From: a virus
Length of the DNA: 57,256 bases
Reading direction: 5' to 3' (one strand)
IMG/VR virus record: IMGVR_UViG_3300025294_000007
Coordinates: 1-57,256 of that record
Shown here: in pieces, positions 15,587 through 51,945 of the stretch
Layout: every line of letters starts with the position of its first letter
Numbering within the stretch: position 1 is the first letter of the stretch
Position numbers and translations under genes: made by a program
Notes under the pieces: generated by a model
Told to the model about the DNA's origin: nothing
What the model saw: only the letters and a program-made list of their open reading frames with translations
Database searches by the model: none

Positions 15587-15615
15587 TTGACGTTATATTT
15601 AATTCATAGTATAAT
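15587..15615 (+). promoter_or_regulatory. Sigma-A consensus promoter of cassette A (TTGACG-17-TATAAT)
   Basis: -35 at 15587..15592 and -10 at 15610..15615. The leader AGTATAGAAAAGGAGGTGAA is nearly identical to the cassette B leader. Confidence 0.75.
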
Positions 15616-15642
15616 AAGAGTATAGAAAAGGAGGTGAACAAA

Positions 15643-15801
15643 GTGGATTACGAAACTATACTAAAACACACAGCTACAATTGTTGGTATCTTAGGTGGAC
15701 TTTCTTCATTTGCTCTCAACATACAGCAACTAAAGAATAACAAGCGTAAGAAGAACAACAAAAAGCGACGTCAGCCGACCAAGCCTAAACGTCGCAAGTA
15801 G
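15643..15801 (+). CDS. Small TM + poly-Lys/Arg peptide, 52 aa, Hol-Tox/TxpA-like (below the ORF-track cutoff)
   Basis: GTG start 7 nt after AAAGGAGGTG. Sequence: VDYETILKHTATIVGILGGLSSFALNIQQLKNNKRKKNNKKRRQPTKPKRRK. Confidence 0.6.
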   Translation: MDYETILKHTATIVGILGGLSSFALNIQQLKNNKRKKNNKKRRQPTKPKRRK

Positions 15802-15832
15802 TGATATGAAGGAGGTGAAAACCTCCTTTATA
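15757..15832 (-). ncRNA. Predicted ~75-nt antisense RNA to the 3' end of the 52-aa peptide gene
   Basis: Minus-strand promoter TTGCAT-17-TAGAAT (15867..15839). Then a hairpin with a GAAA loop on the plus strand (15809..15828), and the stem GCGACGT/ACGTCGC (15795..15763) followed by U5. Confidence 0.4.
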
Positions 15833-15861
15833 CTTAGTATTCTATCGTAACCACTAACGAA

Positions 15862-16059
15862 ATGCAAACGACGCTCAAACGAATATTTAACATTACTATC
15901 ATCATAGCACTTACCATTTTAATACCACGGACAACGGACTTTAATAATCTAACGACGTCAGACTATGTTTTCTTAGCACTGTACGTCTTAATTGTGATTC
16001 TTTTCATAGTTAACACCATACTAGAAGTAATTAATAAACGAGGTGATAACAATGACTAA
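15862..16059 (+). CDS. Two-TM small membrane protein, 65 aa
   Basis: Two hydrophobic helices. No obvious SD. Confidence 0.45.
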   Translation: MQTTLKRIFNITIIIALTILIPRTTDFNNLTTSDYVFLALYVLIVILFIVNTILEVINKRGDNND

Positions 16060-16252
16060 AAAATCACCTGACGCAGATAGTCCGTTATTTAAAATAATGG
16101 ATACCGCAGAAGCATCCGAATTATGGGGACTGACTCAACAGCATATTAAATTGCTATGTACGAAAGGAGAAGTCATTTGCCGTAAGATTGGTCGAGTATG
16201 GTTGCTTGAAAAAGACCAACCAAATCCGAGAAAGTATGAATCTCATATATAA
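16052..16252 (+). CDS. Small HTH DNA-binding protein (excisionase/MerR-like fold), 66 aa
   Basis: ATG 16052 follows GAGGTGA. HTH: AEASELWGLTQQHIKLLCTKGEVICRKIGRVWLL. Confidence 0.6.
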   Translation: MTKKSPDADSPLFKIMDTAEASELWGLTQQHIKLLCTKGEVICRKIGRVWLLEKDQPNPRKYESHI

Positions 16253-16267
16253 GTTCGACTGATTATT

Positions 16268-16301
16268 GACACCTTAATATTATTGTTAGGGTGTCTTTTT
16301 T
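16268..16301 (+). terminator. Intrinsic terminator of cassette A
   Basis: GACACC-15 nt-GGTGTC followed by T6. Confidence 0.7.
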
Positions 16302-16336
16302 ACTTTAGTTTCACCACTAATTACACCACTAATAGC

Positions 16337-16552
16337 GCACAGTAAATATTACTGTGCGGTGTATTTCTTTATCGTATTCTTTAAAGGAATTACGATAAAA
16401 TATATTATTATTGATAGCTACGATTATTTGCGTTAGCAAATGAGCGTAAATGTAATTATTTATAGTAAATATTTATAGTAAATATTTATACGCAGTAAAA
16501 ACTACTGTACCTTACAGTAAATTCTACTGTGTCGTACAGTAAAAACTACTGT
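16337..16552. repeat. Array of four 17-bp palindromes ACAGTA-N5-TACTGT plus tandem TATTTATAGTAAA repeats (candidate origin or operator array)
   Basis: Sites at 16339..16355, 16492..16508, 16514..16530 and 16536..16552. The last three are spaced 22 bp apart. Tandem 14-nt repeats lie at 16458..16490. The region is an AT-rich convergent intergenic gap. Confidence 0.8.
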
Positions 16553-16562
16553 ATGCTATCTG

Positions 16563-17036
16563 TCATAACCATTCTGAAACAGCGTCTCCATCACTTTTTG
16601 CTACTGTCTGAGCCTCTTGATACGCTTCTTTATCGACTGACTTTCGTCTAGCTACTTTATCAGCCGTTTCTTGTTTCGCTTCCCACATCTCTTTTGCTTC
16701 TGGAAACTTAACGAAAAACTCTTTCACATCTTCTATCGGTTCGTGTACATAATACACATTGTTGTGAAACGTCGCTCCTTTATGTTTACAGACTGTCACT
16801 AAACCGCAAGCGACAAGCGTCTTTACCGCATTATTAAAGGTTTTATCGCTAATCCCTAAATCTCGCATAACTTGCGTATTAGTCGGAAATGCATATCCAT
16901 AATCAGAGTTATTTAATTTTGTAAGATACCCGTAAACTTGTATTGAAGTACCGTTATACTTTGGATAAAAGTTATAGTGGGTAAATATCGCGTTAGAAAT
17001 CTGTACGAATCCACGTTTTGTTTGATTTATCGTCAT
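16563..17036 (-). CDS. wHTH replication-initiator/DnaD-N-like protein, 157 aa
   Basis: Pattern GFVQISNAIF...YGYAFPTNTQVMRDLGISDKTFNNAVKTLVACGLV. It is adjacent to the iteron array. Confidence 0.5.
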   Translation of the reverse strand: MTINQTKRGFVQISNAIFTHYNFYPKYNGTSIQVYGYLTKLNNSDYGYAFPTNTQVMRDLGISDKTFNNAVKTLVACGLVTVCKHKGATFHNNVYYVHEPIEDVKEFFVKFPEAKEMWEAKQETADKVARRKSVDKEAYQEAQTVAKSDGDAVSEWL

Positions 17037-17615: not shown

Positions 17616-17644
17616 AAAAAAAGCCACACCTTAATAGATGTGAC
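17616..17644 (-). terminator. Intrinsic terminator of cassette B
   Basis: Minus-strand RNA stem GUCACA/UGUGGC (one G.U pair, which would be a C.A mismatch on the plus strand) followed by U7. Confidence 0.6.
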
Positions 17645-17785
17645 TTCTTTGGCTATTTTGAAAGTTTATATAAGGCATATTAGTTAATCGAAACGCCTTC
17701 TTCCTCTGCCTGCTCTGATAGATATTATGCAAACTTTTCGGCAAGCGAACTACAAACTTTCCATAATGCCAAATTTGGGCGAGAC

Positions 17786-18019
17786 TTAATTGTTAGCTTT
17801 CTTATCCATGTCATTTTTACGCTTAACAATATCTTCTTTAAAGAACAGCCTATCTCTAGGTAAATCTTTAATTGGTATTATCACACCACGTTGCACTAAG
17901 TTATTCAGATTTTGACGTGAGCATTGCAGTATCTCCAACGCTTCAGTTGTATTAATTATTTCATCTTGTATATATTCCGTTAATTCTTCACGTGAGTTGA
18001 AAGAGTAGTTTTCAGTCAT
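17786..18019 (-). CDS. Small HTH DNA-binding protein (excisionase/MerR-like fold), 77 aa
   Basis: HTH: TTEALEILQCSRQNLNNLVQRGVIIPIK. It occupies the same position in cassette B as 16052..16252 does in cassette A. Confidence 0.6.
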   Translation of the reverse strand: MTENYSFNSREELTEYIQDEIINTTEALEILQCSRQNLNNLVQRGVIIPIKDLPRDRLFFKEDIVKRKNDMDKKANN

Positions 18020-18032
18020 TTATTTCCACCAC

Positions 18033-18119
18033 CTAGCGTTTATTTTTTCGCATTGTAATAATCGTTGCGCCAATCACTATCAATGTTATAACAGTTAATA
18101 TTAAGGTTACAATTGACAT
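18033..18119 (-). CDS. 28-aa single-TM peptide (MSIVTLILTVITLIVIGATIITMRKNKR)
   Basis: ATG 8 nt after GAGGTG. Below the ORF-track cutoff. Confidence 0.45.
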   Translation of the reverse strand: MSIVTLILTVITLIVIGATIITMRKNKR

Positions 18120-18191
18120 ACTATAAACACCTCTACTTATTATTAAATTATATTCATTGTATAACATTCTAAATTCGTTTATATTATAGGT

Positions 18192-18266
18192 GAAGGCTAA
18201 GGGTGCGAGCCTTAACCTTCTTTTACTAGCTTGACGCTACTCCTCTGGAGTGGTGTCTTTTTTTTT
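18192..18266 (+). ncRNA. Predicted ~75-nt antisense RNA overlapping the 3' end of the 44-aa peptide gene
   Basis: Promoter TTGTAT-17-TATATT (18157..18185). 5' hairpin AAGGCT/AGCCTT (18193..18213). An 11-bp terminator stem at 18233..18257 has two G.U pairs that form only on the plus-strand RNA, and is followed by U9. Confidence 0.5.
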
Positions 18267-18371
18267 GTTTTCTTTACTTTTCTTGCTGTTCATCTTCGCT
18301 GTTTGGAAATTAATCATTGCGATTATCAAGTTGATGAACGCTGTTAGTGCAACTACTCTTTCAATGTCCAT
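18237..18371 (-). CDS. Small TM + Lys-rich peptide, 44 aa, paralogue of 15643..15801 (Hol-Tox/TxpA-like)
   Basis: ATG 6 nt after GGAGGTG. Sequence: MDIERVVALTAFINLIIAMINFQTAKMNSKKSKENKKKDTTPEE. It aligns without gaps to the cassette A peptide. Confidence 0.6.
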   Translation of the reverse strand: MDIERVVALTAFINLIIAMINFQTAKMNSKKSKENKKKDTTPEE

Positions 18372-18397
18372 TTCTTTCACCTCCTTTCTATACTTTT

Positions 18398-18426
18398 ATT
18401 ATAACATTTATATTTACTCACGTCAA
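18398..18426 (-). promoter_or_regulatory. Sigma-A consensus promoter of cassette B (TTGACG-17-TATAAT)
   Basis: -35 is the reverse complement of 18421..18426, and -10 is the reverse complement of 18398..18403. Confidence 0.75.
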
Positions 18427-18469
18427 TATAAATATGCAATTATTTTATATAAAAGGGTATTTTTAGAAT

Positions 18470-18495
18470 TAAAAAAGACCGCCATTCGGCAGTCT
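18470..18495 (-). terminator. Intrinsic terminator after 18516..18890
   Basis: Minus-strand RNA AGACUGCC-GAAU-GGCGGUCU followed by U6. Confidence 0.65.
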
Positions 18496-18515
18496 TAAAC
18501 GGTTATTCCAAAATA

Positions 18516-37870: not shown

Positions 37871-40366
37871 TTAATCAAATACACCTGATATTAAATAAAT
37901 CTTATTATCAATGTTTGCATTTAGTCTTTTCATTTGGACTTTTAAAATAATACTTTCTTTAGCTTCCTTTGTTTCATAGTAAAATTCATCTTCTACAATT
38001 CCTTGTCTAACAGTTTCAGTACCTGTTGGTGTAAGAGCTACAAACTCCTCTTGTTCATTCTTTGATGTCATAGATAACTCTGCATTAAGAATAAGGTTTT
38101 CATCACGTTGAATCCAAAATAATACTCCTTTAGCTATTCCTTTGGGTGGCTCAATTTTATAGCGTGCAACAGACTCTAAAACAGGTGTATTAATCTCATT
38201 CTTATTTAGCGTAACTTTCTTCTTCGTTTTTGCTCCGTAATTGTCAATGACTTCAATCAGTATTTGATTTTCGCCAACTCGTAAATGTTCCAACAAGACT
38301 TCAAATTTCCATTCTCCGCCTGTACCACTATAAATCTCAACTGCTTTAGCGCTGTTAATTTGGTAATTTACTGTAACTGTTGAATTTGCATCTTGATCAT
38401 AGGCAGTACCACTAATTGTGAATTTATCAGTATCAATGGATCCACTAGGTACAACAGTATCTACAGACAATAACGGAGCTCGGTTAGGTACAACATAGAA
38501 TGATTTTTCAACGACTGATGACGATACGTTTTCGCTGTCTACAGCCCACACTTTTAATTTGTGCGCTACACCATCAGCTAGATTACCTGTAATAGCTATA
38601 TCACCATCGTAAAGTTTTCCGGCTTTGAATTTAAGCTGTTTTGATAATGATATTTGCGTTTGACTGACATTTGTCGCTAAAACTTTTCGTGAATCGCTGT
38701 TGATCTGATAATACACTGTAACTGATTGGTCTTTATCTTGATCATAGGCATCTCCGTTAATATTCATTACATCATTTTCGTATAGTGTCTGCTTGTCCGT
38801 TGGAGATACAACAGCAATAGACGGCGCACTATTCTGTGTATATGTCCCTGTATATTCGATACTAGTATTAGTTAATTGATAAACCAAAGCCGGAATTGTA
38901 CCGAAATTACCACTATAAGAGTTATCTTGTAAAACTGATGGTAACGTTGCTTCACCGCTAGTTCTGCTTGTCACTGCCGGCACATTATACCACGCACCGT
39001 TAATAACGTAACGCGCTATAATATTGTTGACTGTAGTTGATATTGATGGGTTTATTCCTGCGTATACAACAGCTACTTTACCGGAACTATCGACTGAAAG
39101 GGATGGGTTAAACCAACTGTAGTCATAACCTGTTACACCTTCAGGAGTTCTCCAAGTAGCGCCCCCATCTAATGACTTACAGTAAACTATACTGTACTTA
39201 CTACCTTCCCCCTTACTTTGCCACGCTACATGAATATTGCCGTTTTTGTCGATGACTGCCGACGGATTAAGTTGTTGAAAACTGCCTCCGCTATAGATTT
39301 TGCTTTCTTGCCATGAACCATTTTCGTATCTCTTAGCTATTATGTTGTAAATAGAACCATCGTACTGCTGATAAATGATAACAGGAACGGTGTCTTTTCT
39401 ACCCACTATCGTAGGTGTTGAGTTGTGTGTACTGGAAACATTAAAGCTTGTTGCATTAACAACAGGTTCCCAGGAAACACCGCCGTTAGTACTCCTAGCA
39501 TAACGAATATTCCATGCATTTGGGTATGTTGATGTTACGCACGACCACGCCGCGTGCAAAAATCCGGACGTCGGATCAAATGCTAAAGACATAGTTGCTA
39601 CTGATGTTGGTGAATCAAGTGTTGTCTCAGCGGCGAACGAAAAAATACTACCATTTCTCACTAATTTTCTAAAACGAATAGAGTTACCATACGAGTACAT
39701 AAACCCAACCTCATTAGCATTTATAACCGTTATAACTACATCTGTAGTATCTACACCAGCTAAACCAAGTTGAGTAGCATACGTCCATGATGATCCTTCG
39801 TTTTGCGATATATATACTTTAATATAATCGACGTTTCTAATGACCGTCATTAATGTTCCGTCTGATACTCTGACTAACTTACGCCCCCCGTTGCCGTTTA
39901 CGCTATACGGTTGATTAATAACTTGTCCAGGAAGTACTGGTCCAACTGCTGCACCTTTAACATACCAATAGCCATCGCTCTGTCGTCCGTTTGCCGGGTA
40001 TGTTCCTTCTTCTACAGCGATATTACTTTGTACTAACGAACCTTTGGAGTACGATGTATTAGTACCTGTTTGAACATACGTTGATTTACCTGTTGTTTTT
40101 TTGACTTTTGAACCTAGGGTAGCTGTAGATCGATATACGTCTCTGCCTCCACCACTATATAGAGTACCGGTTGGGCCATTTACTGAATCATAATTTACAT
40201 AAGAACCTGACAATTGAACGTAACCTTCACTATCTAAGTAATATGAAGTGTTTCCCGCATATGTTCCATCATACGCTTCTTGTTCAGCCCCCCATACAAC
40301 CTGCCAATTATAAATTGGTGTCTCGTCTTTTATTGATGTAAACTTGTCATAATAATATAAAGCCAT
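37871..40366 (-). CDS. Tail fibre / receptor-binding protein paralogue with a BNR (Asp-box) beta-propeller, 831 aa
   Basis: Asp-boxes SLDGGATW, STNGGVSW and SQNEGSSW. The N-terminus MALYYYDKFTSIK and the C-terminal 320 aa or so are shared with 40448..43078 and 49948..51945. Confidence 0.7.
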   Translation of the reverse strand: MALYYYDKFTSIKDETPIYNWQVVWGAEQEAYDGTYAGNTSYYLDSEGYVQLSGSYVNYDSVNGPTGTLYSGGGRDVYRSTATLGSKVKKTTGKSTYVQTGTNTSYSKGSLVQSNIAVEEGTYPANGRQSDGYWYVKGAAVGPVLPGQVINQPYSVNGNGGRKLVRVSDGTLMTVIRNVDYIKVYISQNEGSSWTYATQLGLAGVDTTDVVITVINANEVGFMYSYGNSIRFRKLVRNGSIFSFAAETTLDSPTSVATMSLAFDPTSGFLHAAWSCVTSTYPNAWNIRYARSTNGGVSWEPVVNATSFNVSSTHNSTPTIVGRKDTVPVIIYQQYDGSIYNIIAKRYENGSWQESKIYSGGSFQQLNPSAVIDKNGNIHVAWQSKGEGSKYSIVYCKSLDGGATWRTPEGVTGYDYSWFNPSLSVDSSGKVAVVYAGINPSISTTVNNIIARYVINGAWYNVPAVTSRTSGEATLPSVLQDNSYSGNFGTIPALVYQLTNTSIEYTGTYTQNSAPSIAVVSPTDKQTLYENDVMNINGDAYDQDKDQSVTVYYQINSDSRKVLATNVSQTQISLSKQLKFKAGKLYDGDIAITGNLADGVAHKLKVWAVDSENVSSSVVEKSFYVVPNRAPLLSVDTVVPSGSIDTDKFTISGTAYDQDANSTVTVNYQINSAKAVEIYSGTGGEWKFEVLLEHLRVGENQILIEVIDNYGAKTKKKVTLNKNEINTPVLESVARYKIEPPKGIAKGVLFWIQRDENLILNAELSMTSKNEQEEFVALTPTGTETVRQGIVEDEFYYETKEAKESIILKVQMKRLNANIDNKIYLISGVFD

Positions 40367-40447: not shown

Positions 40448-43078
40448 TTAATCTATTACACCTGATATTAAATGAATCTTATTATTAACAGTCTCATCTG
40501 GTCTTGTCATTTGGATTTTTAAAATAATATTTTCTTTAGCTTCACCGGTCTCATAGTAGAATTCGTCTTCCACTATACCTTGTTTAAGCGCCACTGTATT
40601 TATTGAGGTAAGTTCTACAAACTCCTCTGGTTCACTCTGTTCTGTCATGGATATTTCTGTATTCATAGTAAGCTTTTCATCACGTTGAATCCAGAATAGG
40701 ACACCTTTAGCAGTTCCCTGTGGCGGTTCAATTTTATAGCGAGCAACTGATTTTAAGACAGGCTTATTATTCTCAGTTTTTCTGAGTTTAATAGTTTTAC
40801 TAGTTTTAGCACCGTAGTTGTCAACAATTTCAACTACAATCGTATTTTCACCAACCAAAAGTTGCGTTAGAAAAACGTCAAATCTCCACGATCCACCTGT
40901 ACCATTGTAAATTTCGACTGCATTACCTGCATTGATTCTATAGGCTACCTTTACGGAGGAATTCGCATCTTGATCCGATGCAGTTCCACTTATTTTAAAT
41001 TTATCAGTGTTGATTGTTCCGCTTGGTATGACTTCATCAATTGTTAGTAGAGGTGCTCTGTTAGGTACGACATAAAATGATCGTTCGACGATTGTAGAAG
41101 AAGCTTTTTCACTGTCCTCTGCCCACACTTTCAATGCATGAGCTACACCTTCAGCGAGAGTTCCTGTAATGGCCGATTCGCCATCGTAAAGTTTGCCAGC
41201 TTTAAATTTAAGTTGCTTAGATAACATTATTTGCGTTTGACTAATATTTGTTGTTAAGACCTTCTTGGAGTCGCTATTGATTTGATAATAAGATGTAACT
41301 GACTGATCTTTGTCAGCGTCGTATGCATCGCCTGAAATATTGAACGTGTCATTTTCGTAAAGCGTTTGATTGTCGCTAGGCGATAAAACGGCGATTGACG
41401 GTGGGTTATTTTTGACGATGGCACCCGCCAACAATACCCCTTTATCCGATGTTTCATGAATGTAAGGAGGTGGCGAACCTGTATTTCTACCAAACGAAAG
41501 ACGGAATTCTGGGTCGTGTAGTAACTGAGGGTATTGGCTGTCCGTATTTACTAGCGTTGATGATTCCCATGATAACCCCCTGTCTTTGGACATAAAGGCG
41601 TAAACATTACTAGTTGCTGGACTAAAACCCATAGCCCATAGATTGCCGTTTGTTTTATCGTAAGTTATCGTGGCACTTGTACATTTGTTATCATTTAAAA
41701 AATTTCCTGTAGGTTCTTGCCATGCAGTACCGCTATCAGACCACAGTGTCGTTAATTGCGCAACACCATTAGTAGTCGTCGTTTTTAGATAAATCAAGTG
41801 AAAACGGTCATTACTATCCATAATTAGTTTAGGCGCTGTAGCTAGTTGTACGCTAGCAGACACCGGGTACGCATTATTAAATGTTGCGCTATTGTTTGTA
41901 CTGTATAGGATGCCAATGGAGAACACACTACCTTGTACAATGCTATAGGCTATCCAGATTTTGTTTCCTTTTGCCACAATAGATGGCGCGTAATTGTCCT
42001 TATTTAACTCTGTAGAGTTTGTAAGCATCTTGGCATTAGTCCACGCGTTTCCTTGAGCGGCAACACAATTCATGTATCTAATATTATAATTTGATGGGTA
42101 GATACTAGTTCTCACACTAAACGCTAAGTGTAGGATGCCTGTTGACTTGTCATAGAACATACTTGCACCAGCGCCGTTTTGTGAAATCGCATCTGTTGCA
42201 AGGATTGCGCCCGTTACCGTCAATGTGTGAGTTTCTAAGTTATACAAGTAATACAATAACTGAGCGTCTTTTTGTACTATCCATGCCACGCTATTACCTA
42301 CGGCGCATATGGTAGTGTCTTTCACACCTCCAATACCTAGCATGTACCCTTGTTCCCATGTTACGCCGTTATCTTTTGATACGAATAACGCTGTATTAGT
42401 ATCTTTTATATACGGCGCAGCAACTAGCCACCCATTGTCAAGGTATACAAATTTTGCATTCGCAGTAGGTCGTAATAATGACGTAATAATAGGTGTTACC
42501 GTCCCTGGTGGCGTCGGTCCCACGGCTCCCTTTTTAACGTACCAGTAGCCGTCAGTATGGCGCCCATCTGCTGGGTACGTGCCATCTTCTGCTGCTATGT
42601 TCGCCTGTACGAGTGCGCCTTTTGAGTAGGTTGTCTTGATAACAACAGGCGTTAATTTATAAATAGTTACCGTGTAGAAGTGCCCTGGGTTCTGCTCCTC
42701 GTAATCAGCGAACATATTAACCTTATATGTTCCGGCTCCGGGACCTGTAAATTGCATATAACAATATCTATGACCGTATGAACCGTAGTTAGTAGTGAAC
42801 TCGTATAAAGTTTTAAACACCGTTTCTTTAAGGTCACGATTTACAATAGGTTTCTCCATTCCAATCTTACCTGTTTTATCAATGGAAATACCATTATACG
42901 CAGTAGTCGGGTTTATTACAGTACCAGCGCCCAAATTATCAGGAATTAGTGGATTAAGCATTTGTACTACATCGACATTACTTATTGCTATTCTGGTTCC
43001 TGGAATAGCTACACTCTCGTAATAGTCGTATGTCTCATTTTTAATCGATGTAAACTTGTCATAATAATACTGTGCCAT
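40448..43078 (-). CDS. Tail fibre / receptor-binding protein paralogue with a BNR (Asp-box) beta-propeller, 876 aa
   Basis: Asp-boxes SKDNGVTW, SKDRGLSW and SDSGTAW. N-terminus MAQYYYDKFTSIK. Shares the C-terminal module. Confidence 0.7.
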   Translation of the reverse strand: MAQYYYDKFTSIKNETYDYYESVAIPGTRIAISNVDVVQMLNPLIPDNLGAGTVINPTTAYNGISIDKTGKIGMEKPIVNRDLKETVFKTLYEFTTNYGSYGHRYCYMQFTGPGAGTYKVNMFADYEEQNPGHFYTVTIYKLTPVVIKTTYSKGALVQANIAAEDGTYPADGRHTDGYWYVKKGAVGPTPPGTVTPIITSLLRPTANAKFVYLDNGWLVAAPYIKDTNTALFVSKDNGVTWEQGYMLGIGGVKDTTICAVGNSVAWIVQKDAQLLYYLYNLETHTLTVTGAILATDAISQNGAGASMFYDKSTGILHLAFSVRTSIYPSNYNIRYMNCVAAQGNAWTNAKMLTNSTELNKDNYAPSIVAKGNKIWIAYSIVQGSVFSIGILYSTNNSATFNNAYPVSASVQLATAPKLIMDSNDRFHLIYLKTTTTNGVAQLTTLWSDSGTAWQEPTGNFLNDNKCTSATITYDKTNGNLWAMGFSPATSNVYAFMSKDRGLSWESSTLVNTDSQYPQLLHDPEFRLSFGRNTGSPPPYIHETSDKGVLLAGAIVKNNPPSIAVLSPSDNQTLYENDTFNISGDAYDADKDQSVTSYYQINSDSKKVLTTNISQTQIMLSKQLKFKAGKLYDGESAITGTLAEGVAHALKVWAEDSEKASSTIVERSFYVVPNRAPLLTIDEVIPSGTINTDKFKISGTASDQDANSSVKVAYRINAGNAVEIYNGTGGSWRFDVFLTQLLVGENTIVVEIVDNYGAKTSKTIKLRKTENNKPVLKSVARYKIEPPQGTAKGVLFWIQRDEKLTMNTEISMTEQSEPEEFVELTSINTVALKQGIVEDEFYYETGEAKENIILKIQMTRPDETVNNKIHLISGVID

Positions 43079-45988: not shown

Positions 45989-47065
45989 ATGCAATTGTTT
46001 GCGTTAGATTTAGGAAACCGTCAAGTAAAATTAATGAGTGAAAAAGCTACAAAAGTCCTACCTAGTTACTTTGTAAATGCTGCAGAATACGGGAAGCGTG
46101 ACGTGCTTGCGTTAGGTAAAAAAGAAAAGGAACAGACAACTAGCGATTATGTAACAGGTCGTGACGCAGATTTTACTTACGTTTGGGGAACGGGATTAGA
46201 TATTAACCGCAAACGTGTTACGGATACATTGGACTTCAATAGACGATATGATACGTTAGAATTTAAGGTGTTAGCAGATTTAGCACTTACTGAATTAGCG
46301 CGTGACTTTAAAGAATCTACAAAGAGCGCTATTGACGTGGCAGTTGTAACTGGTGTACCTACAGACGATTACGATAATGACGAGACAATTAAGCACATTA
46401 GAAACGCTTTAATCGGCGTACATAGCGCCTCGATTGACGGGGTAGATCATTATGTTCATGTACGTTCTGTAGACGTTCTTATGCAGCCAGTAGGCACAGC
46501 TATAGACGCAATGGTTGACGCACTTGGCAATATTAAAGAAGATAACGATATTGAGGACGGATATATTGGAGTAGTCGATGTCGGAGGTGGTACGGTTATC
46601 ATCAACGCTTTCGATAAGATGAATCTTGATACAAAGCACCGTGTACAAATGGAGGACGGATCATATTCATTATTCACAGAGATCCGCAATCGAATCATTG
46701 ATAAAGGCTACAAAATTTCTGAACACGAAGTTGAGCAAATTGTCCGTGATGGTAACGATAAGGAAGTATATACGTGGTCGCCAAACGGTCGTGAAACGCT
46801 TGATTTTACAGATATGGTTATGAAAGAGCGTAAATTATACACTCGTAACATTGCTCAATCTGTGAAATCAACGTTTAAAGCGATGTCTAGTATGCGTAAA
46901 ATATACGTAACTGGAGGTACTGCAAATCTTCTTATTAAAGATGAATTTACACGAGTAGTCAAAATTGCACATTTTGTAAACGACAGTGAAACGGCAAACG
47001 TGCGCGGGTATTATAAATACGGATTAATAAATGAGGTGACTGCTGTTGACGAAGCTACGAATTGA
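45989..47065 (+). CDS. Actin-like segregation ATPase (ParM/Alp family), 358 aa
   Basis: Phosphate-1 ALDLGNRQVK, phosphate-2 VVDVGGGTVII and adenosine motif YVTGGTANL. Confidence 0.8.
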   Translation: MQLFALDLGNRQVKLMSEKATKVLPSYFVNAAEYGKRDVLALGKKEKEQTTSDYVTGRDADFTYVWGTGLDINRKRVTDTLDFNRRYDTLEFKVLADLALTELARDFKESTKSAIDVAVVTGVPTDDYDNDETIKHIRNALIGVHSASIDGVDHYVHVRSVDVLMQPVGTAIDAMVDALGNIKEDNDIEDGYIGVVDVGGGTVIINAFDKMNLDTKHRVQMEDGSYSLFTEIRNRIIDKGYKISEHEVEQIVRDGNDKEVYTWSPNGRETLDFTDMVMKERKLYTRNIAQSVKSTFKAMSSMRKIYVTGGTANLLIKDEFTRVVKIAHFVNDSETANVRGYYKYGLINEVTAVDEATN

Positions 47066-49737: not shown

Positions 49738-49948
49738 TTTTTGCGCCTCCTAATATTTGTAGTAACAATTCCGCTTGTAACGATTCTATCGCATCTAAAC
49801 GAATATCTTTTTCTATTAAAGAAAGCGTTAGAGACGCGTTTTCCTCCTCTAATCGCTCTACTCTTTCGCTAGATGTTTCGCCTTGACCGATTTTTTCTAC
49901 TGCGCCCAATGATCCGTCTGATAGGCGTGGTCTACGTTCAATAGCCAT
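49730..49948 (-). CDS. Small coiled-coil tail-fibre-associated protein (XkdW position), 72 aa
   Basis: Gene order only. Confidence 0.45.
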   Translation of the reverse strand: MAIERRPRLSDGSLGAVEKIGQGETSSERVERLEEENASLTLSLIEKDIRLDAIESLQAELLLQILGGAKNE

Positions 49949-51945
49949 TAAAGCACCCCCATAATTAATGTAATAGCGCTGTTTGCTTCAACATCCAATT
50001 TTTCCAATTCAAGTTGCAGGATAATAGAATCTTTCGCTTCATCAGATGCTAAGTAAAACTCATCTTCCACCTGACCGTTTTGTAGATTAGCTGTATTCGT
50101 CAGTGTCATAGGCTTAAACGATTCTTGTTCGCCTGATAGTGTCATACTTGCTGATATTTTTAACGTCAATTCAGCGTTATGTTGTACCCAAATGATAATC
50201 TCGGAAGCTGATCCAGTAGGAGGCGCTATTTTATAGCGAGCTGTTGATTTGTTAATGGGCACAACAACTTTATTTTTAAGGAGTTTTACCGTTTGAGTTG
50301 TTTTAGCACCGTAGCTGTCAACAGCTTCAACTGTTATAAGGTTTTCCCCAATGTTCAATGCGCCTAAAGAGACATTAAAGTCGAATGTTCCACTTGTGCC
50401 AGTTGCGATTTGAATGGAATTAGCACCGTTAATACGGTAGCTTACCGTCGTTTCGTTTTGGTCTTGATCCTCGAACGTTCCATCAATAACAAAGGTGTCC
50501 TTATCTATATTACCGGTTGTGGTAGGTGGATTAACTGTCAGCAATGGCACACGGTTAGGTACGACATAAAATGTTCGCACCACGTTCTCGGATGACGCAT
50601 TTTCGGTATCAACAGCCCAAACTTTTAAAGTGTGTGCTACACCTTCTGTTAAATCGCTTGTAATTGCTGTCTCATCGTCATAAAGTTTTCCTGCTTTAAA
50701 AGTGAGCTTTTTGGATAACGATATTTCTGTTTTACTTAGATTAGTAGCTAATACTTTTCGTTGTTCACTGTTTATTTGATAGTAAACTGTAACCGATTGA
50801 TCTGTATCAGTATCGGAAGCTGTACCTGTAATGTTTAATGTGTCATTTTCGTACAATGTCACGTTTTCAGACGGGCTGGTTAATATCACAGTAGGTGCAT
50901 TATTGTATTTCATTGTATATTCTGCGGAAGTAGTCCAAGCAGAAGCATCTGACGAATCCTTAGCACATACCCTAAATTGAATATATGTCCCTGTAATATT
51001 GGTTGGTATTGTCCAAGATATTCCGTTAGTAGTAGTAGTACTTATAGTAGTCCAAGACTGGCCTCTATCCTTCGTGTACTGGAATTGATAATTTACTACA
51101 TCTCCGTCTGGGTCACTTACTGTTCCGGCAGTTATTGATACTGCAACACCCGGCTTGAAAGTTCCAGTAGCTTGTAAACTTCCGGGCTTAGGAGGAGCAG
51201 TATTTAAATGAGTAATACGAGCATATCCACCTCCGGTATTTCCGTTTCCTGAAGTTCCATTAGGGAGAAGCATGTAGTTAGCTCCATTAACGGAGTTACC
51301 GGAAGTGACTCCCCCAATGTATCCGGAACCACCGCCACCTCCGGCATCATCATCATCACTATGGCTAGGGTAGTCGGTTCCGCCGCCGCCACCTCCGTAG
51401 TAGCCACCGCCACCGCCACCACCTCCTACGGAAGAAGTGCCCTGTCCTGAACGTCCTCCTTGTCCTAAAGAACCTGATTCTCCAGAAGAACCTCCGGAAC
51501 CACCGGCTCCTCCTGAGCCAGAAGAACCTCCGGAACCACCCATTCTAGTAGAAGCAGCATCGGGAGCCTTTAATCCATCAATTCCTCCTCCGGCTCCTCC
51601 GGCATGTGCGTCACTATAGGAAATATATCTTCCAGCTCCACCGCCACCTCCGGCTACAAGGATACGGTTGGATAATGAAGTACCTCCTCTACGAAAATCT
51701 GTGGCTCCACCACCATATAATTCAGACTTATTAGCTGCTCCGCCACCATTATATCCGAACTGTCCACCTACATATATATACAGAACTTCTCCGGCAGTAA
51801 GATTTACTATACCTTCTGAGAATCCTCCCTTTCCTCCATAAGTACCTCCTTGCGCTCCCCATGCGTATAATTGGTATCGTCCAGTTGTGGGAACAGTAAA
51901 AGTTTGCACAGCATTTGTATTTCCAAAATTCCATGTTTGACCCAT
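49948..51945 (-). CDS. Glycine-rich-domain tail fibre paralogue, 665 aa
   Basis: N-terminal TFTVPTTGRYQLYAWGAQGG...GGGGGGGGYYGGGGGG glycine-rich domain. The C-terminal 320 aa or so are homologous to the two BNR fibres. Confidence 0.7.
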   Translation of the reverse strand: MGQTWNFGNTNAVQTFTVPTTGRYQLYAWGAQGGTYGGKGGFSEGIVNLTAGEVLYIYVGGQFGYNGGGAANKSELYGGGATDFRRGGTSLSNRILVAGGGGGAGRYISYSDAHAGGAGGGIDGLKAPDAASTRMGGSGGSSGSGGAGGSGGSSGESGSLGQGGRSGQGTSSVGGGGGGGGYYGGGGGGTDYPSHSDDDDAGGGGGSGYIGGVTSGNSVNGANYMLLPNGTSGNGNTGGGYARITHLNTAPPKPGSLQATGTFKPGVAVSITAGTVSDPDGDVVNYQFQYTKDRGQSWTTISTTTTNGISWTIPTNITGTYIQFRVCAKDSSDASAWTTSAEYTMKYNNAPTVILTSPSENVTLYENDTLNITGTASDTDTDQSVTVYYQINSEQRKVLATNLSKTEISLSKKLTFKAGKLYDDETAITSDLTEGVAHTLKVWAVDTENASSENVVRTFYVVPNRVPLLTVNPPTTTGNIDKDTFVIDGTFEDQDQNETTVSYRINGANSIQIATGTSGTFDFNVSLGALNIGENLITVEAVDSYGAKTTQTVKLLKNKVVVPINKSTARYKIAPPTGSASEIIIWVQHNAELTLKISASMTLSGEQESFKPMTLTNTANLQNGQVEDEFYLASDEAKDSIILQLELEKLDVEANSAITLIMGVL

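What the first reader, a model, noticed from the sequence alone, without database searches (positions are those of the whole stretch)
18157..18426. Cassette B: paralogous 44-aa peptide gene with a strand-specific antisense terminator inside its 3' end
ORF 18237..18371 (minus strand) has promoter TTGACG-17-TATAAT and SD GGAGGTG. It aligns without gaps to the cassette A peptide.

On the plus strand, TTGTAT-17-TATATT (18157..18185) is followed by the hairpin AAGGCT/AGCCTT. An 11-bp stem (18233..18257) plus U9 then follows. That stem has two non-Watson-Crick positions that are G.U on the plus-strand RNA but C.A on the minus-strand RNA, so it works as a terminator only for a plus-strand transcript.

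No plus-strand ORF exists here. The terminator sits inside the last six codons of the peptide gene, giving a 30-nt overlap.
Basis: partly seen in the sequence, partly recalled or inferred. Interest (0 to 1): 0.7.

Follow-up and report, generated by a model that had tools for sequence, protein, structure and literature searches.

The report
Antisense RNA gene between two phage peptides
This phage carries a small antisense RNA gene between two tiny membrane-peptide genes, built like the known yonT-yoyJ/SR6 toxin-antitoxin module of Bacillus phage SPbeta, so it is a solid new example of a known kind rather than a new mechanism.

Summary
The sequence features are real. A 44-aa peptide gene (B, 18237-18371, minus) has a near-consensus promoter and Shine-Dalgarno (SD) sequence. 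On the plus strand, a promoter, a 5' hairpin and an 11-bp terminator plus T9 define a ~77-nt RNA (18190-18266) with no conserved ORF.

I found the locus in 31 other places (Lysinibacillus and Ureibacillus genomes, phage SDFMU_Pfc, viral and metagenome contigs). The plus-strand -35 and -10 are conserved while the spacer drifts. The terminator stem pairs in 100% of cells on the plus strand and 79% on the minus strand. Its changes are G.U<->A-U switches plus one double compensatory change.

Two claims fail. Peptides A and B are not paralogous (1/44 identity). A is really 26-29 aa, not 44.

The two "cassettes" form one conserved operon: P_B, B, antisense RNA, A, then a Xis-like helix-turn-helix (HTH) gene. 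This architecture matches yonT-yoyJ/SR6 of SPbeta, the promoter-leader sequence is shared with yonT, and the same layout occurs in B. thuringiensis pCT51, phage yong1 and at 15587-16295 in this window.

Best reading: an SR6-like type I toxin-antitoxin module. Toxicity and transcription are untested.

The parts
18398..18426 (-). Promoter P_B: TTGACG-17-(TG)TATAAT
   Evidence: 11/12, extended -10. Kept at the same place in most relatives. The -10 and leader are shared with yonT of SPbeta, pCT51 and yong1.
18372..18391 (-). Short leader of B mRNA with SD GGAGGTG (18378-18384)
   Evidence: Mean pairwise column identity 0.81. Leader cassette AGTATAGAAAGGAGGTG aligned across modules.
18237..18371 (-). 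Peptide B gene, 44 aa: N-terminal hydrophobic helix (VVALTAFINLIIAMINF) and Lys-rich tail ending DTTPEE
   Evidence: Variable sites by codon position are 16/10/31 and all indels are in frame. Kyte-Doolittle (KD) hydrophobicity 2.31 over 17 aa. No Pfam, NCBIfam or PADLOC family.
18157..18185 (+). Promoter of the antisense RNA: TTGTAT-17-TATATT
   Evidence: In every locus a TTGT..-17-TATA.T match ends 7-8 nt before hairpin 1. Column identity is 0.93 for -35, 0.61 for the spacer and 0.93 for -10.
18190..18266 (+). Predicted ~77-nt antisense sRNA (ends inferred, not mapped)
   Evidence: Two-hairpin fold, -29.9 kcal/mol, z -4.25. 23 distinct homologous sequences. No Rfam family.
18192..18220 (+). 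Hairpin 1. On the sRNA it is 10 bp with a C.A mismatch. On the mRNA strand it is 11 bp (U.G) with a YUNR (pyrimidine-U-any-purine) motif at the first loop position.
   Evidence: Stem invariant in 22 of 23 sequences. dG is -11.3 on plus and -14.1 on minus.
18233..18266 (+). Rho-independent terminator of the sRNA: 11-bp stem, loop TCT, T9. It overlaps the last six codons and the stop codon of B. The T-run lies opposite the Lys codons.
18033..18133 (-). Peptide A gene (28 aa, ATG 18119, MSIVTLILTVITLIVIGATIITMRKNKR) with SD GAGGTG at 18128-18133
   Evidence: Intact in all loci. KD 2.67. No conserved promoter of its own.
17786..18019 (-). Xis-like HTH_17 gene (77 aa). It starts 13 nt after the stop of A, and the stop codon of A overlaps its SD.
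   Evidence: Pfam HTH_17 1e-5 and phrog_4691 'excisionase' 2.7e-28. Found directly downstream of A in every locus with enough flank.
17617..17650 (-). Terminator-like hairpin plus T-run that would end the B-A-HTH transcript
18475..18496 (-). Terminator-like site of the upstream genes, which insulates P_B

Best explanation
The locus is one transcription unit on the minus strand. A strong sigma-A promoter P_B drives peptide B (44 aa, membrane helix plus Lys-rich tail), then peptide A (28 aa, membrane helix plus basic tail), then a Xis-like HTH protein.

A ~77-nt non-coding RNA is made from the plus strand, from its own promoter in the B-A spacer. It consists of a 5' hairpin, a short linker and an intrinsic terminator. 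That terminator is written into the last six codons of B, and its U-tract lies opposite the Lys codons of B.

The sRNA is fully complementary to the 3' end of B and to the B-A spacer of the polycistronic mRNA. I infer that it pairs with that mRNA and that the duplex is cut, most likely by RNase III as for SR6/yonT. First contact would be with the YUNR-bearing loop of the mRNA hairpin. Cutting would destabilise the B message and uncouple or lower expression of A and the HTH gene.

Functionally this makes it a type I toxin-antitoxin (addiction or stabilisation) module of the yonT-yoyJ/SR6 type, carried by Lysinibacillus and Ureibacillus temperate phages.

Shown here: the sequence features, their conservation, the strand-specific structural selection, the coding signatures and the shared architecture. 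Inferred: transcription, pairing in vivo, the RNase involved, and toxicity of B and A.
For: 1. All elements are present at the stated places.

2. There are 31 related loci. The sRNA promoter hexamers score 0.93 identity against 0.61 for the spacer, and these positions were not part of any search pattern.

3. The terminator helix is 100% paired in 253 cells. Six of 11 pairs vary, by G.U<->A-U, U.G<->U-A and C-G<->U.G, and one pair switches UA<->CG in 6 sequences. The same columns pair in only 79% of cells on the minus strand. dG is -12.6 to -16.2 on plus against -2.2 to -9.9 on minus.

4. Hairpin 1 is more stable on the mRNA strand, and its loop starts with YUNR in all 23 sequences and all 9 distinct loops.

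5. B and A show coding signatures and conserved SDs. Both are hydrophobic-helix peptides with basic tails.

6. There is no minus-strand terminator after B and no conserved promoter for A. The stop of A overlaps the SD of the HTH gene. The HTH gene follows A in every locus with enough flank.

7. The same layout occurs in the characterised yonT-yoyJ/SR6 system. There a ~100-nt antisense RNA lies between two toxin genes on a polycistronic mRNA, its 3' end lies inside the yonT coding end, no terminators follow yonT or yoyJ, and decay depends on RNase III (PMC5848175; SPbeta sequence).

8. The promoter-leader cassette TGnTATAAT-..AGTATAG-AAAGGAGGTG-6 nt-start is shared with yonT, pCT51, yong1 and a second module in this window.

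9. B is decayed in some loci (L005/L015, L026; ATT start in L006) while the sRNA is kept. This would be consistent with loss of a toxin gene.
Against: No expression data exist for either strand.

The sRNA -35 is weak (TTGTAT, 8/12 in all, no TG).

B has no detectable sequence homology to YonT, BsrG, TxpA or Fst. tblastn against all phages, including SPbeta, finds only SDFMU_Pfc. The pairwise E-value against YonT is 0.04 in a 15-sequence database. There are no Pfam or NCBIfam hits.

The B leader is only ~20 nt, so the usual 5' structure that sequesters the SD of Gram-positive type I toxins is absent.

Unlike SR6 and yoyJ, this sRNA does not overlap the ribosome-binding site of the second peptide. 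Its 5' end lies about 70 nt upstream of the ATG of A.

The sRNA and A persist where B is dead, which could mean that B is not the main target.

Most loci were ascertained with patterns taken from hairpin 1 or from the terminator, so conservation of those two elements is partly built in.
Confidence: 0.6

Rival explanations
1. The antisense RNA is real, but the module is a regulatory switch and not a toxin-antitoxin pair. B and A would be harmless membrane proteins expressed in the lysogen, for example for superinfection exclusion. The sRNA would mainly gate how much of the P_B transcript reaches the Xis-like HTH regulator.
For: The HTH gene is invariably linked and tightly spaced behind A. The sRNA and A are kept where B has decayed. 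P_B is near consensus, as expected for a constitutively expressed lysogeny gene. The HTH proteins are homologous across the Lysinibacillus, B. thuringiensis and B. subtilis-phage modules while the peptides are not.
Against: The characterised relative by architecture, yonT/SR6, is a toxin-antitoxin system with a toxic first peptide (PMC5848175; PMC2887945). SPbeta has no HTH gene at that position: yonU shows no significant match to the HTH proteins (E 0.11-3.1). Peptide features fit type I toxins.
Confidence: 0.2
2. The invariant inverted repeat GAAGGCTAAGG...CCTTAACCTTC acts at the DNA level, as an operator for the HTH protein or another phage regulator. Its conservation would reflect protein binding rather than RNA structure.
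For: The stem is invariant in 22 of 23 sequences with no covariation. It lies at +1 to +29 of the sRNA promoter. A DNA-binding protein is always encoded in the operon.
Against: Freezing of the stem is also expected if both transcripts must fold, because G.U intermediates on one strand are C.A on the other. Analogous modules with homologous HTH proteins have a hairpin at the same place with a different sequence. The loop keeps a strand-specific YUNR motif. This reading does not exclude the RNA role.
Confidence: 0.1
3. The plus-strand hairpin plus T-run is only an insulator that stops stray plus-strand transcription from running antisense into B. There would be no dedicated sRNA gene.
For: The sRNA promoter is a weak consensus match (8/12). 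Terminator-like sites are 3 found against 1.4 expected in the region.
Against: No plausible plus-strand gene lies upstream for several kb. The -35 and -10 hexamers are conserved with a drifting 17-nt spacer, at a fixed 7-8 nt before hairpin 1, in all loci. Hairpin 1 would have no role.
Confidence: 0.05

Closest known systems
yonT-yoyJ/SR6 type I toxin-antitoxin system of Bacillus subtilis prophage SPbeta (PMC5848175; PMC2887945)
   Same: A polycistronic mRNA from a strong promoter with an extended -10. The first product is a membrane helix with a basic tail. A small (~100-nt) antisense RNA has its own promoter in the spacer before a second membrane-protein gene. The antisense terminator lies inside the toxin's 3' coding end, with the T-tract opposite Lys codons. 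No terminator follows the toxin gene. The -10, leader and SD cassette is shared.
   Different: There is no detectable sequence homology of B to YonT or of the sRNA to SR6. The second peptide is 26-29 aa with one helix, against the 83-aa two-helix YoyJ. The sRNA does not cover its ribosome-binding site. The ORF overlap is 30 nt against ~65 nt. A Xis-like HTH gene follows instead of yonU. The hosts are Lysinibacillus and Ureibacillus.
bsrG/SR4, bsrE/SR5 and txpA/RatA, the prophage type I systems of B. subtilis (PMC6562991, PMC3834814)
   Same: Convergent toxin mRNA and antisense RNA overlapping at their 3' ends. Prophage location. Loop-loop recognition with U-turn motifs. Decay assisted by RNase III.
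   Different: Those antitoxins are 163-222 nt and the toxin mRNAs are monocistronic with their own terminators and structured leaders (Table 1). Here the sRNA is ~77 nt, the mRNA is polycistronic and the leader is ~20 nt. There is no family-level sequence match.
Unnamed modules in B. thuringiensis plasmid pCT51, B. subtilis phage yong1 and this window at 15587-16295
   Same: Identical gene order: small membrane peptide with a basic tail, antisense sRNA with a 5' hairpin and a terminator inside the ORF end, second membrane protein, small HTH protein. The HTH proteins are homologous (58% identity, E 5e-30 to pCT51; E 1e-10 to yong1). The promoter-leader cassette is shared.
   Different: The peptide and sRNA sequences are unrelated. 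The second protein has two helices and 65-80 aa. None of these modules is annotated or, as far as I could find, characterised.
Lambda OOP RNA / cII (own knowledge)
   Same: A ~77-nt phage antisense RNA that overlaps the 3' end of a convergent gene and triggers RNase III cleavage.
   Different: The target there is the lysogeny regulator cII and not a membrane peptide. There is no homology. This is an analogy of mechanism only.

Membership tests
Type I toxin-antitoxin systems (general) | Small (<60 aa) hydrophobic, membrane-targeted peptide | tested here: met
   B is 44 aa with KD 2.31 over 17 aa. A is 28 aa with KD 2.67. Both have basic tails. Coding signatures are present.
Type I toxin-antitoxin systems (general) | Antisense RNA gene overlapping the toxin mRNA | tested here: met
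   In silico only: conserved promoter, hairpin and strand-specific terminator on the opposite strand. Transcription was not observed.
Type I toxin-antitoxin systems (general) | The peptide is toxic when expressed, and the RNA prevents its synthesis | not testable with these tools
   Needs induction and deletion experiments. The only indirect hint is decay of B in L005/L015, L026 and L006.
yonT-yoyJ/SR6 | Toxin homologous to YonT | tested here: not met
   tblastn of B against 50,697 phage records, which include SPbeta, finds only SDFMU_Pfc. Pairwise identity is 33% over 39 aa with E 0.04 in a 15-sequence database.
yonT-yoyJ/SR6 | Antisense RNA between two membrane-protein genes of one operon, with its 3' end inside the first ORF | tested here: met
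   Compared with the SPbeta sequence and with PMC5848175.
yonT-yoyJ/SR6 | The 5' part of the antisense RNA overlaps the ribosome-binding site of the second gene | tested here: not met
   The sRNA starts at about 18190. The SD of A is at 18128-18133 and its ATG at 18119. The sRNA promoter lies in between.
yonT-yoyJ/SR6 | Related toxin promoter and leader | tested here: met
   Alignment A3: TGnTATAAT, AGT(A/C)ATAG, AAAGGAGGTG, then 6 nt to the start codon, shared with yonT. The elements are short, so convergence on a strong promoter and SD cannot be excluded.
yonT-yoyJ/SR6 | RNase III-dependent decay of the toxin mRNA | not testable with these tools
   Needs rnc mutants or in vitro cleavage.
TxpA/BsrG, BsrE/BsrH, Fst/Ldr and other curated toxin families | Match to the family profile | tested here: not met
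   Pfam (E<=0.1), NCBIfam (E<=10), PADLOC and PHROGs give no toxin family for A or B.
Any Rfam antitoxin or sRNA family | Covariance-model match | tested here: not met
   No hit at gathering score over the whole window. At E<=10 on 17950-18500 there are only two chance-level hits elsewhere.

The most novel reading that the evidence does not exclude
The unit is not primarily an addiction module. Instead, this is a widespread, undescribed phage control circuit of Bacillaceae and Caryophanaceae temperate phages and phage-plasmids. In it, a cis-antisense RNA sits between two membrane peptides and gates expression of a conserved Xis-like HTH regulator. The frozen hairpin would serve as both RNA structure and operator. 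The circuit would couple membrane or stress state to prophage maintenance or induction, and yonT/SR6 would be a degenerate offshoot that lost the regulator.
Probability: 0.15. Interest if true: 0.65.

Novelty: new member of a known kind. Interest (0 to 1): 0.45.

Why it matters
It adds an unannotated family to the type I toxin-antitoxin repertoire: two peptides and one sRNA with no Pfam, NCBIfam or Rfam entry. The family occurs in Lysinibacillus and Ureibacillus phages. It also links the so far Bacillus-restricted yonT/SR6 system to a broader set of modules in B. thuringiensis plasmids, phi105-like phages and this phage, which carries two of them.

The locus shows dual coding clearly. The last seven residues of B (DTT[S/P][K/E][K/E]) are dictated by an antisense terminator, and the U-tract of that terminator lies opposite the peptide's Lys codons. 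One hairpin evolves freely through G.U intermediates because only one strand needs it. The other hairpin is frozen, possibly because both strands need it.

The constant link to a Xis-like HTH gene raises a testable question: do such modules regulate prophage functions rather than merely stabilise the element?

Tried and rejected
1. Near-identical DNA in the phage and plasmid collections: none. Distant blastn gave SDFMU_Pfc and short promoter-leader hits that led to pCT51, yong1 and phiCDKH01.

2. Rfam at gathering score and at E<=10: nothing relevant.

3. Pfam, PHROGs, NCBIfam and PADLOC for A and B: only chance-level hits.

4. A protein database search with B: one 46-aa relative only, because such ORFs are rarely called.

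5. A/B paralogy: rejected.

6. A dedicated sigma-A promoter for A on the minus strand. The window has TTCACC-17-TAGAAT (9/12) and many loci have a weak mirror-image TATAAA-16-TACAAT, but neither is conserved. The T6 position of that -10 varies, and the conserved bases fit the plus-strand -35.

7. Trans pairing of the CU-rich sRNA arm with the translation-initiation regions of B or A: duplex energies are no better than with shuffled sRNA, with z mostly between -1.5 and +1.3 (the first attempt, timed out).

8. Hairpin 1 on the mRNA strand as a terminator for B: rejected, because no U-tract follows it.

9. A plus-strand coding role: rejected, because there is no conserved ORF or SD.

10. Literature search for a described Lysinibacillus type I system, or for yonT relatives outside Bacillus: none found.

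Full report
WHAT IS THERE

The window is a ~57-kb phage genome of a low-GC Firmicute. It encodes terminase, portal, DNA polymerase, ribonucleotide reductase, thymidylate synthase, an amidase and a partition protein.

On the minus strand, between 17600 and 18500, the following lie in order:
- a terminator of the upstream genes (18496..18475);
- a near-consensus promoter, TTGACG-17-TG-TATAAT (18426..18398, 11/12);
- a ~20-nt leader with SD GGAGGTG;
- a 44-aa ORF (B, 18371..18237);
- a 117-nt spacer;
- SD GAGGTG and a 28-aa ORF (A, 18119..18033);
- 13 nt later, a 77-aa HTH_17 / phrog_4691 'excisionase' ORF (18019..17786);
- a terminator (17650..17617).

On the plus strand, inside the B-A spacer, lie TTGTAT-17-TATATT (18157..18185), a hairpin (18192..18220), a 12-nt linker, an 11-bp stem (18233..18257) and T9. 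The predicted 77-nt RNA folds into exactly these two hairpins (-29.9 kcal/mol, z -4.25).

First, the AAGGCT/AGCCTT register is sub-optimal. Second, the A/B 'paralogy' does not exist: identity is 1/44 ungapped and BLASTP finds no alignment. The 44-aa version of A is an over-extension of a 26-29-aa gene.

IS IT MORE THAN CHANCE?

A distant blastn found the locus in Bacillus phage SDFMU_Pfc (host Lysinibacillus fusiformis) at 74.5% identity.

Pattern scans based on hairpin 1 or on the terminator found it in:
- Lysinibacillus capsici (twice);
- L. mangiferihumi;
- a Lysinibacillus MAG;
- Ureibacillus sinduriensis;
- a Bacillota MAG;
- 14 IMG/VR contigs;
- 10 metagenome contigs.

That gives 31 loci, with 23 distinct sRNA sequences including the window's own.

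Three observations do not depend on the search patterns.

(a) Column identity is 0.93 for the sRNA -35 and 0.93 for the -10, but 0.61 for the 17-nt spacer and 0.38 for the stretch upstream. This is the footprint of a promoter. The -10 always ends 7-8 nt before hairpin 1.

(b) In the loci found through hairpin 1, the terminator was free to vary. It does vary at 6 of 11 pairs and is still paired in 253 of 253 cells. The changes are G.U<->A-U, U.G<->U-A, C-G<->U.G and one UA<->CG double change in 6 sequences.

(c) Read on the minus strand, the same columns pair in only 79% of cells. Hairpin energies are -12.6 to -16.2 kcal/mol on the plus strand against -2.2 to -9.9 on the minus strand.

The T-run exists only on the plus strand, and this is the main reason termination is one-directional.

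CODING CONSTRAINTS

B has 16/10/31 variable sites at codon positions 1/2/3, only in-frame indels, and a conserved N-terminal half (M-E-L-E-R-V-V-A-I-T-A-F-V-N-L-A-I-A-I-I-N-F-Q-T-A-K). A has 21/12/24, with conservative I/L/V exchanges.

The middle of B's tail varies in length. The last seven residues, by contrast, are DTT[S/P][K/E][K/E] everywhere, because they are the terminator stem. The stop codon TAG lies in the stem. The compensatory C-G to U-A change converts P-E-E into S-K-K. The T-run is the complement of the Lys codons.

Hairpin 1 behaves in the opposite way:
- its stem is invariant (one break, in L026);
- it is more stable on the mRNA strand (-14.1 against -11.3, because C.A becomes U.G);
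- the mRNA-strand loop starts with a YUNR motif in all 23 sequences and all 9 loop variants, whereas the sRNA strand rarely has one.

U-turn loops are the usual first-contact sites in antisense systems, including SR4/bsrG and SR5/bsrE (PMC6562991).

ONE MODULE, NOT TWO CASSETTES

The HTH gene follows A in every locus with enough flank, while the other neighbours differ.

No minus-strand terminator follows B. No conserved promoter precedes A. The stop codon of A overlaps the SD of the HTH gene.

So B, A and the HTH gene are most likely co-transcribed from P_B. In that case the sRNA is complementary over its whole length to this mRNA: the last 30 nt of the B ORF plus the spacer.

B is degenerate in L005/L015 (no -10 or SD, and a frameshift) and in L026 (early stop), and has ATT for ATG in L006. 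A and the sRNA are intact everywhere.

COMPARISON WITH KNOWN SYSTEMS

No Rfam, Pfam, NCBIfam or PADLOC family matches.

The architecture is that of yonT-yoyJ/SR6 of SPbeta. That system has:
- a polycistronic mRNA from a promoter with an extended -10;
- a membrane-helix toxin with a basic tail;
- a ~100-nt antisense RNA that starts in the spacer before a second, weaker toxin gene and ends inside yonT;
- no terminators after yonT or yoyJ;
- RNase III-dependent decay (PMC5848175; PMC2887945).

I retrieved the SPbeta locus. SR6 likewise has a 5' AAGG...CCTT hairpin, a terminator inside the coding end, and a T5CT5 tract opposite KKKK codons.

Short promoter-leader hits led to three further copies of the same layout:
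- B. thuringiensis plasmid pCT51;
- the phi105-like phage yong1;
- a second module in this very window at 15587-16295 on the plus strand.

Each copy has a predicted antisense RNA with a terminator inside the end of the first ORF. The HTH proteins of these modules are homologous (E 5e-30 and 1e-10). The pCT51 two-helix protein matches the window's 65-aa ORF (E 2e-9). The -10, leader and SD cassette aligns across all of them, including yonT. The peptides B and YonT themselves show no significant similarity.

MECHANISM

The best-supported reading (confidence about 0.6) is an SR6-like type I toxin-antitoxin module. The ~77-nt RNA would pair with the B-A-HTH mRNA, the duplex would be cleaved, and B synthesis would be kept low, possibly along with A and HTH synthesis.

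That a plus-strand sRNA gene exists I rate at about 0.9. That it acts as a cis-antisense regulator I rate at about 0.8. Toxicity is the least certain step.

The rivals are:
- a regulatory switch for the HTH gene, with non-toxic membrane peptides (0.2);
- a DNA-level operator role for the frozen inverted repeat (0.1, and not exclusive of the RNA role);
- a mere insulator terminator (0.05).

A trans-acting anti-SD role for the CU-rich arm is not supported.

VERDICT

This is a real, well-conserved, unannotated antisense-RNA and peptide module. It is a new member of a known kind, moderately interesting, with a few instructive features and one open question: the constant HTH partner.

Noticed in passing
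window 15587-16295 (+ strand; antisense RNA on the - strand about 15838-15750): A second module of the same architecture. It has promoter TTGACG-17-TATAAT and the same leader. A 52-aa YonT-like ORF starts at GTG 15643 (VDYETILKHTATIVGILGGLSSFALNIQQLKNNKRKKNNKKRRQPTKPKRRK). A minus-strand promoter TTTGCA-18-TAGAAT (15868..15839) is followed by a 5' hairpin and a terminator inside the ORF end (fold z -3.5). Then come a 65-aa two-helix ORF (15862-16059), an HTH ORF (16043-16252) and a terminator (16268-16295). The two-helix ORF has no nearby SD, but a perfect GAAGGAGGTG is locked in the mRNA hairpin 30 nt upstream.
   Followed up: partly
L032 (B. thuringiensis pCT51, 890-1570), L034 (phage yong1, 270-960), L033 (C. 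difficile phage phiCDKH01, 420-970): The same gene order (small membrane peptide, hairpin/antisense region, second membrane protein, small DNA-binding protein) sits behind a near-identical -10, leader and SD cassette. In pCT51 and SDFMU_Pfc the module lies next to the holin-endolysin genes. In phiCDKH01 the third gene encodes a different small protein (58 aa; by eye AbrB-like, not checked against any family), and I did not examine an antisense RNA there.
   Followed up: partly
L005/L015 (L. capsici PB300 contig_22, the closest relative of the window), L026, L006: Peptide B is inactivated (promoter/SD deletion plus frameshift; early stop; ATG->ATT) while the antisense RNA gene and peptide A stay intact.
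   Followed up: partly
window 16330-16560: An iteron-like array: four copies of ACAGTAAAnnnTACTGT (three of them at 22-nt spacing) and three 13-nt AT-rich tandem repeats (GTAAATATTTATA). It lies next to the DnaD/HTH_36-like gene 16563-17036 and is a likely replication origin.
   Followed up: partly
window 45989-47065 (+) and the whole window: A partition protein (phrog_691) is present, together with an own DNA polymerase, helicase, ribonucleotide reductase and thymidylate synthase. No integrase turned up among the ORFs I scanned. The close relative is a 57,977-bp stand-alone contig. The element may be a phage-plasmid, which would suit an addiction module.
   Followed up: no
window 37871-40366, 40448-43078, 49948-51945 (all -): Three large paralogous proteins share the C-terminal ~320 aa of phrog_21129 (unknown function). 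They are possibly alternative tail-fibre or receptor-binding proteins.
   Followed up: no
L001 2271-2672 (SDFMU_Pfc CDS WNO29726.1): The deposited 133-aa CDS appears to be an over-extension. It runs from the Xis-like gene across peptide A into the sRNA promoter. Peptide A and the sRNA are not annotated there.
   Followed up: no
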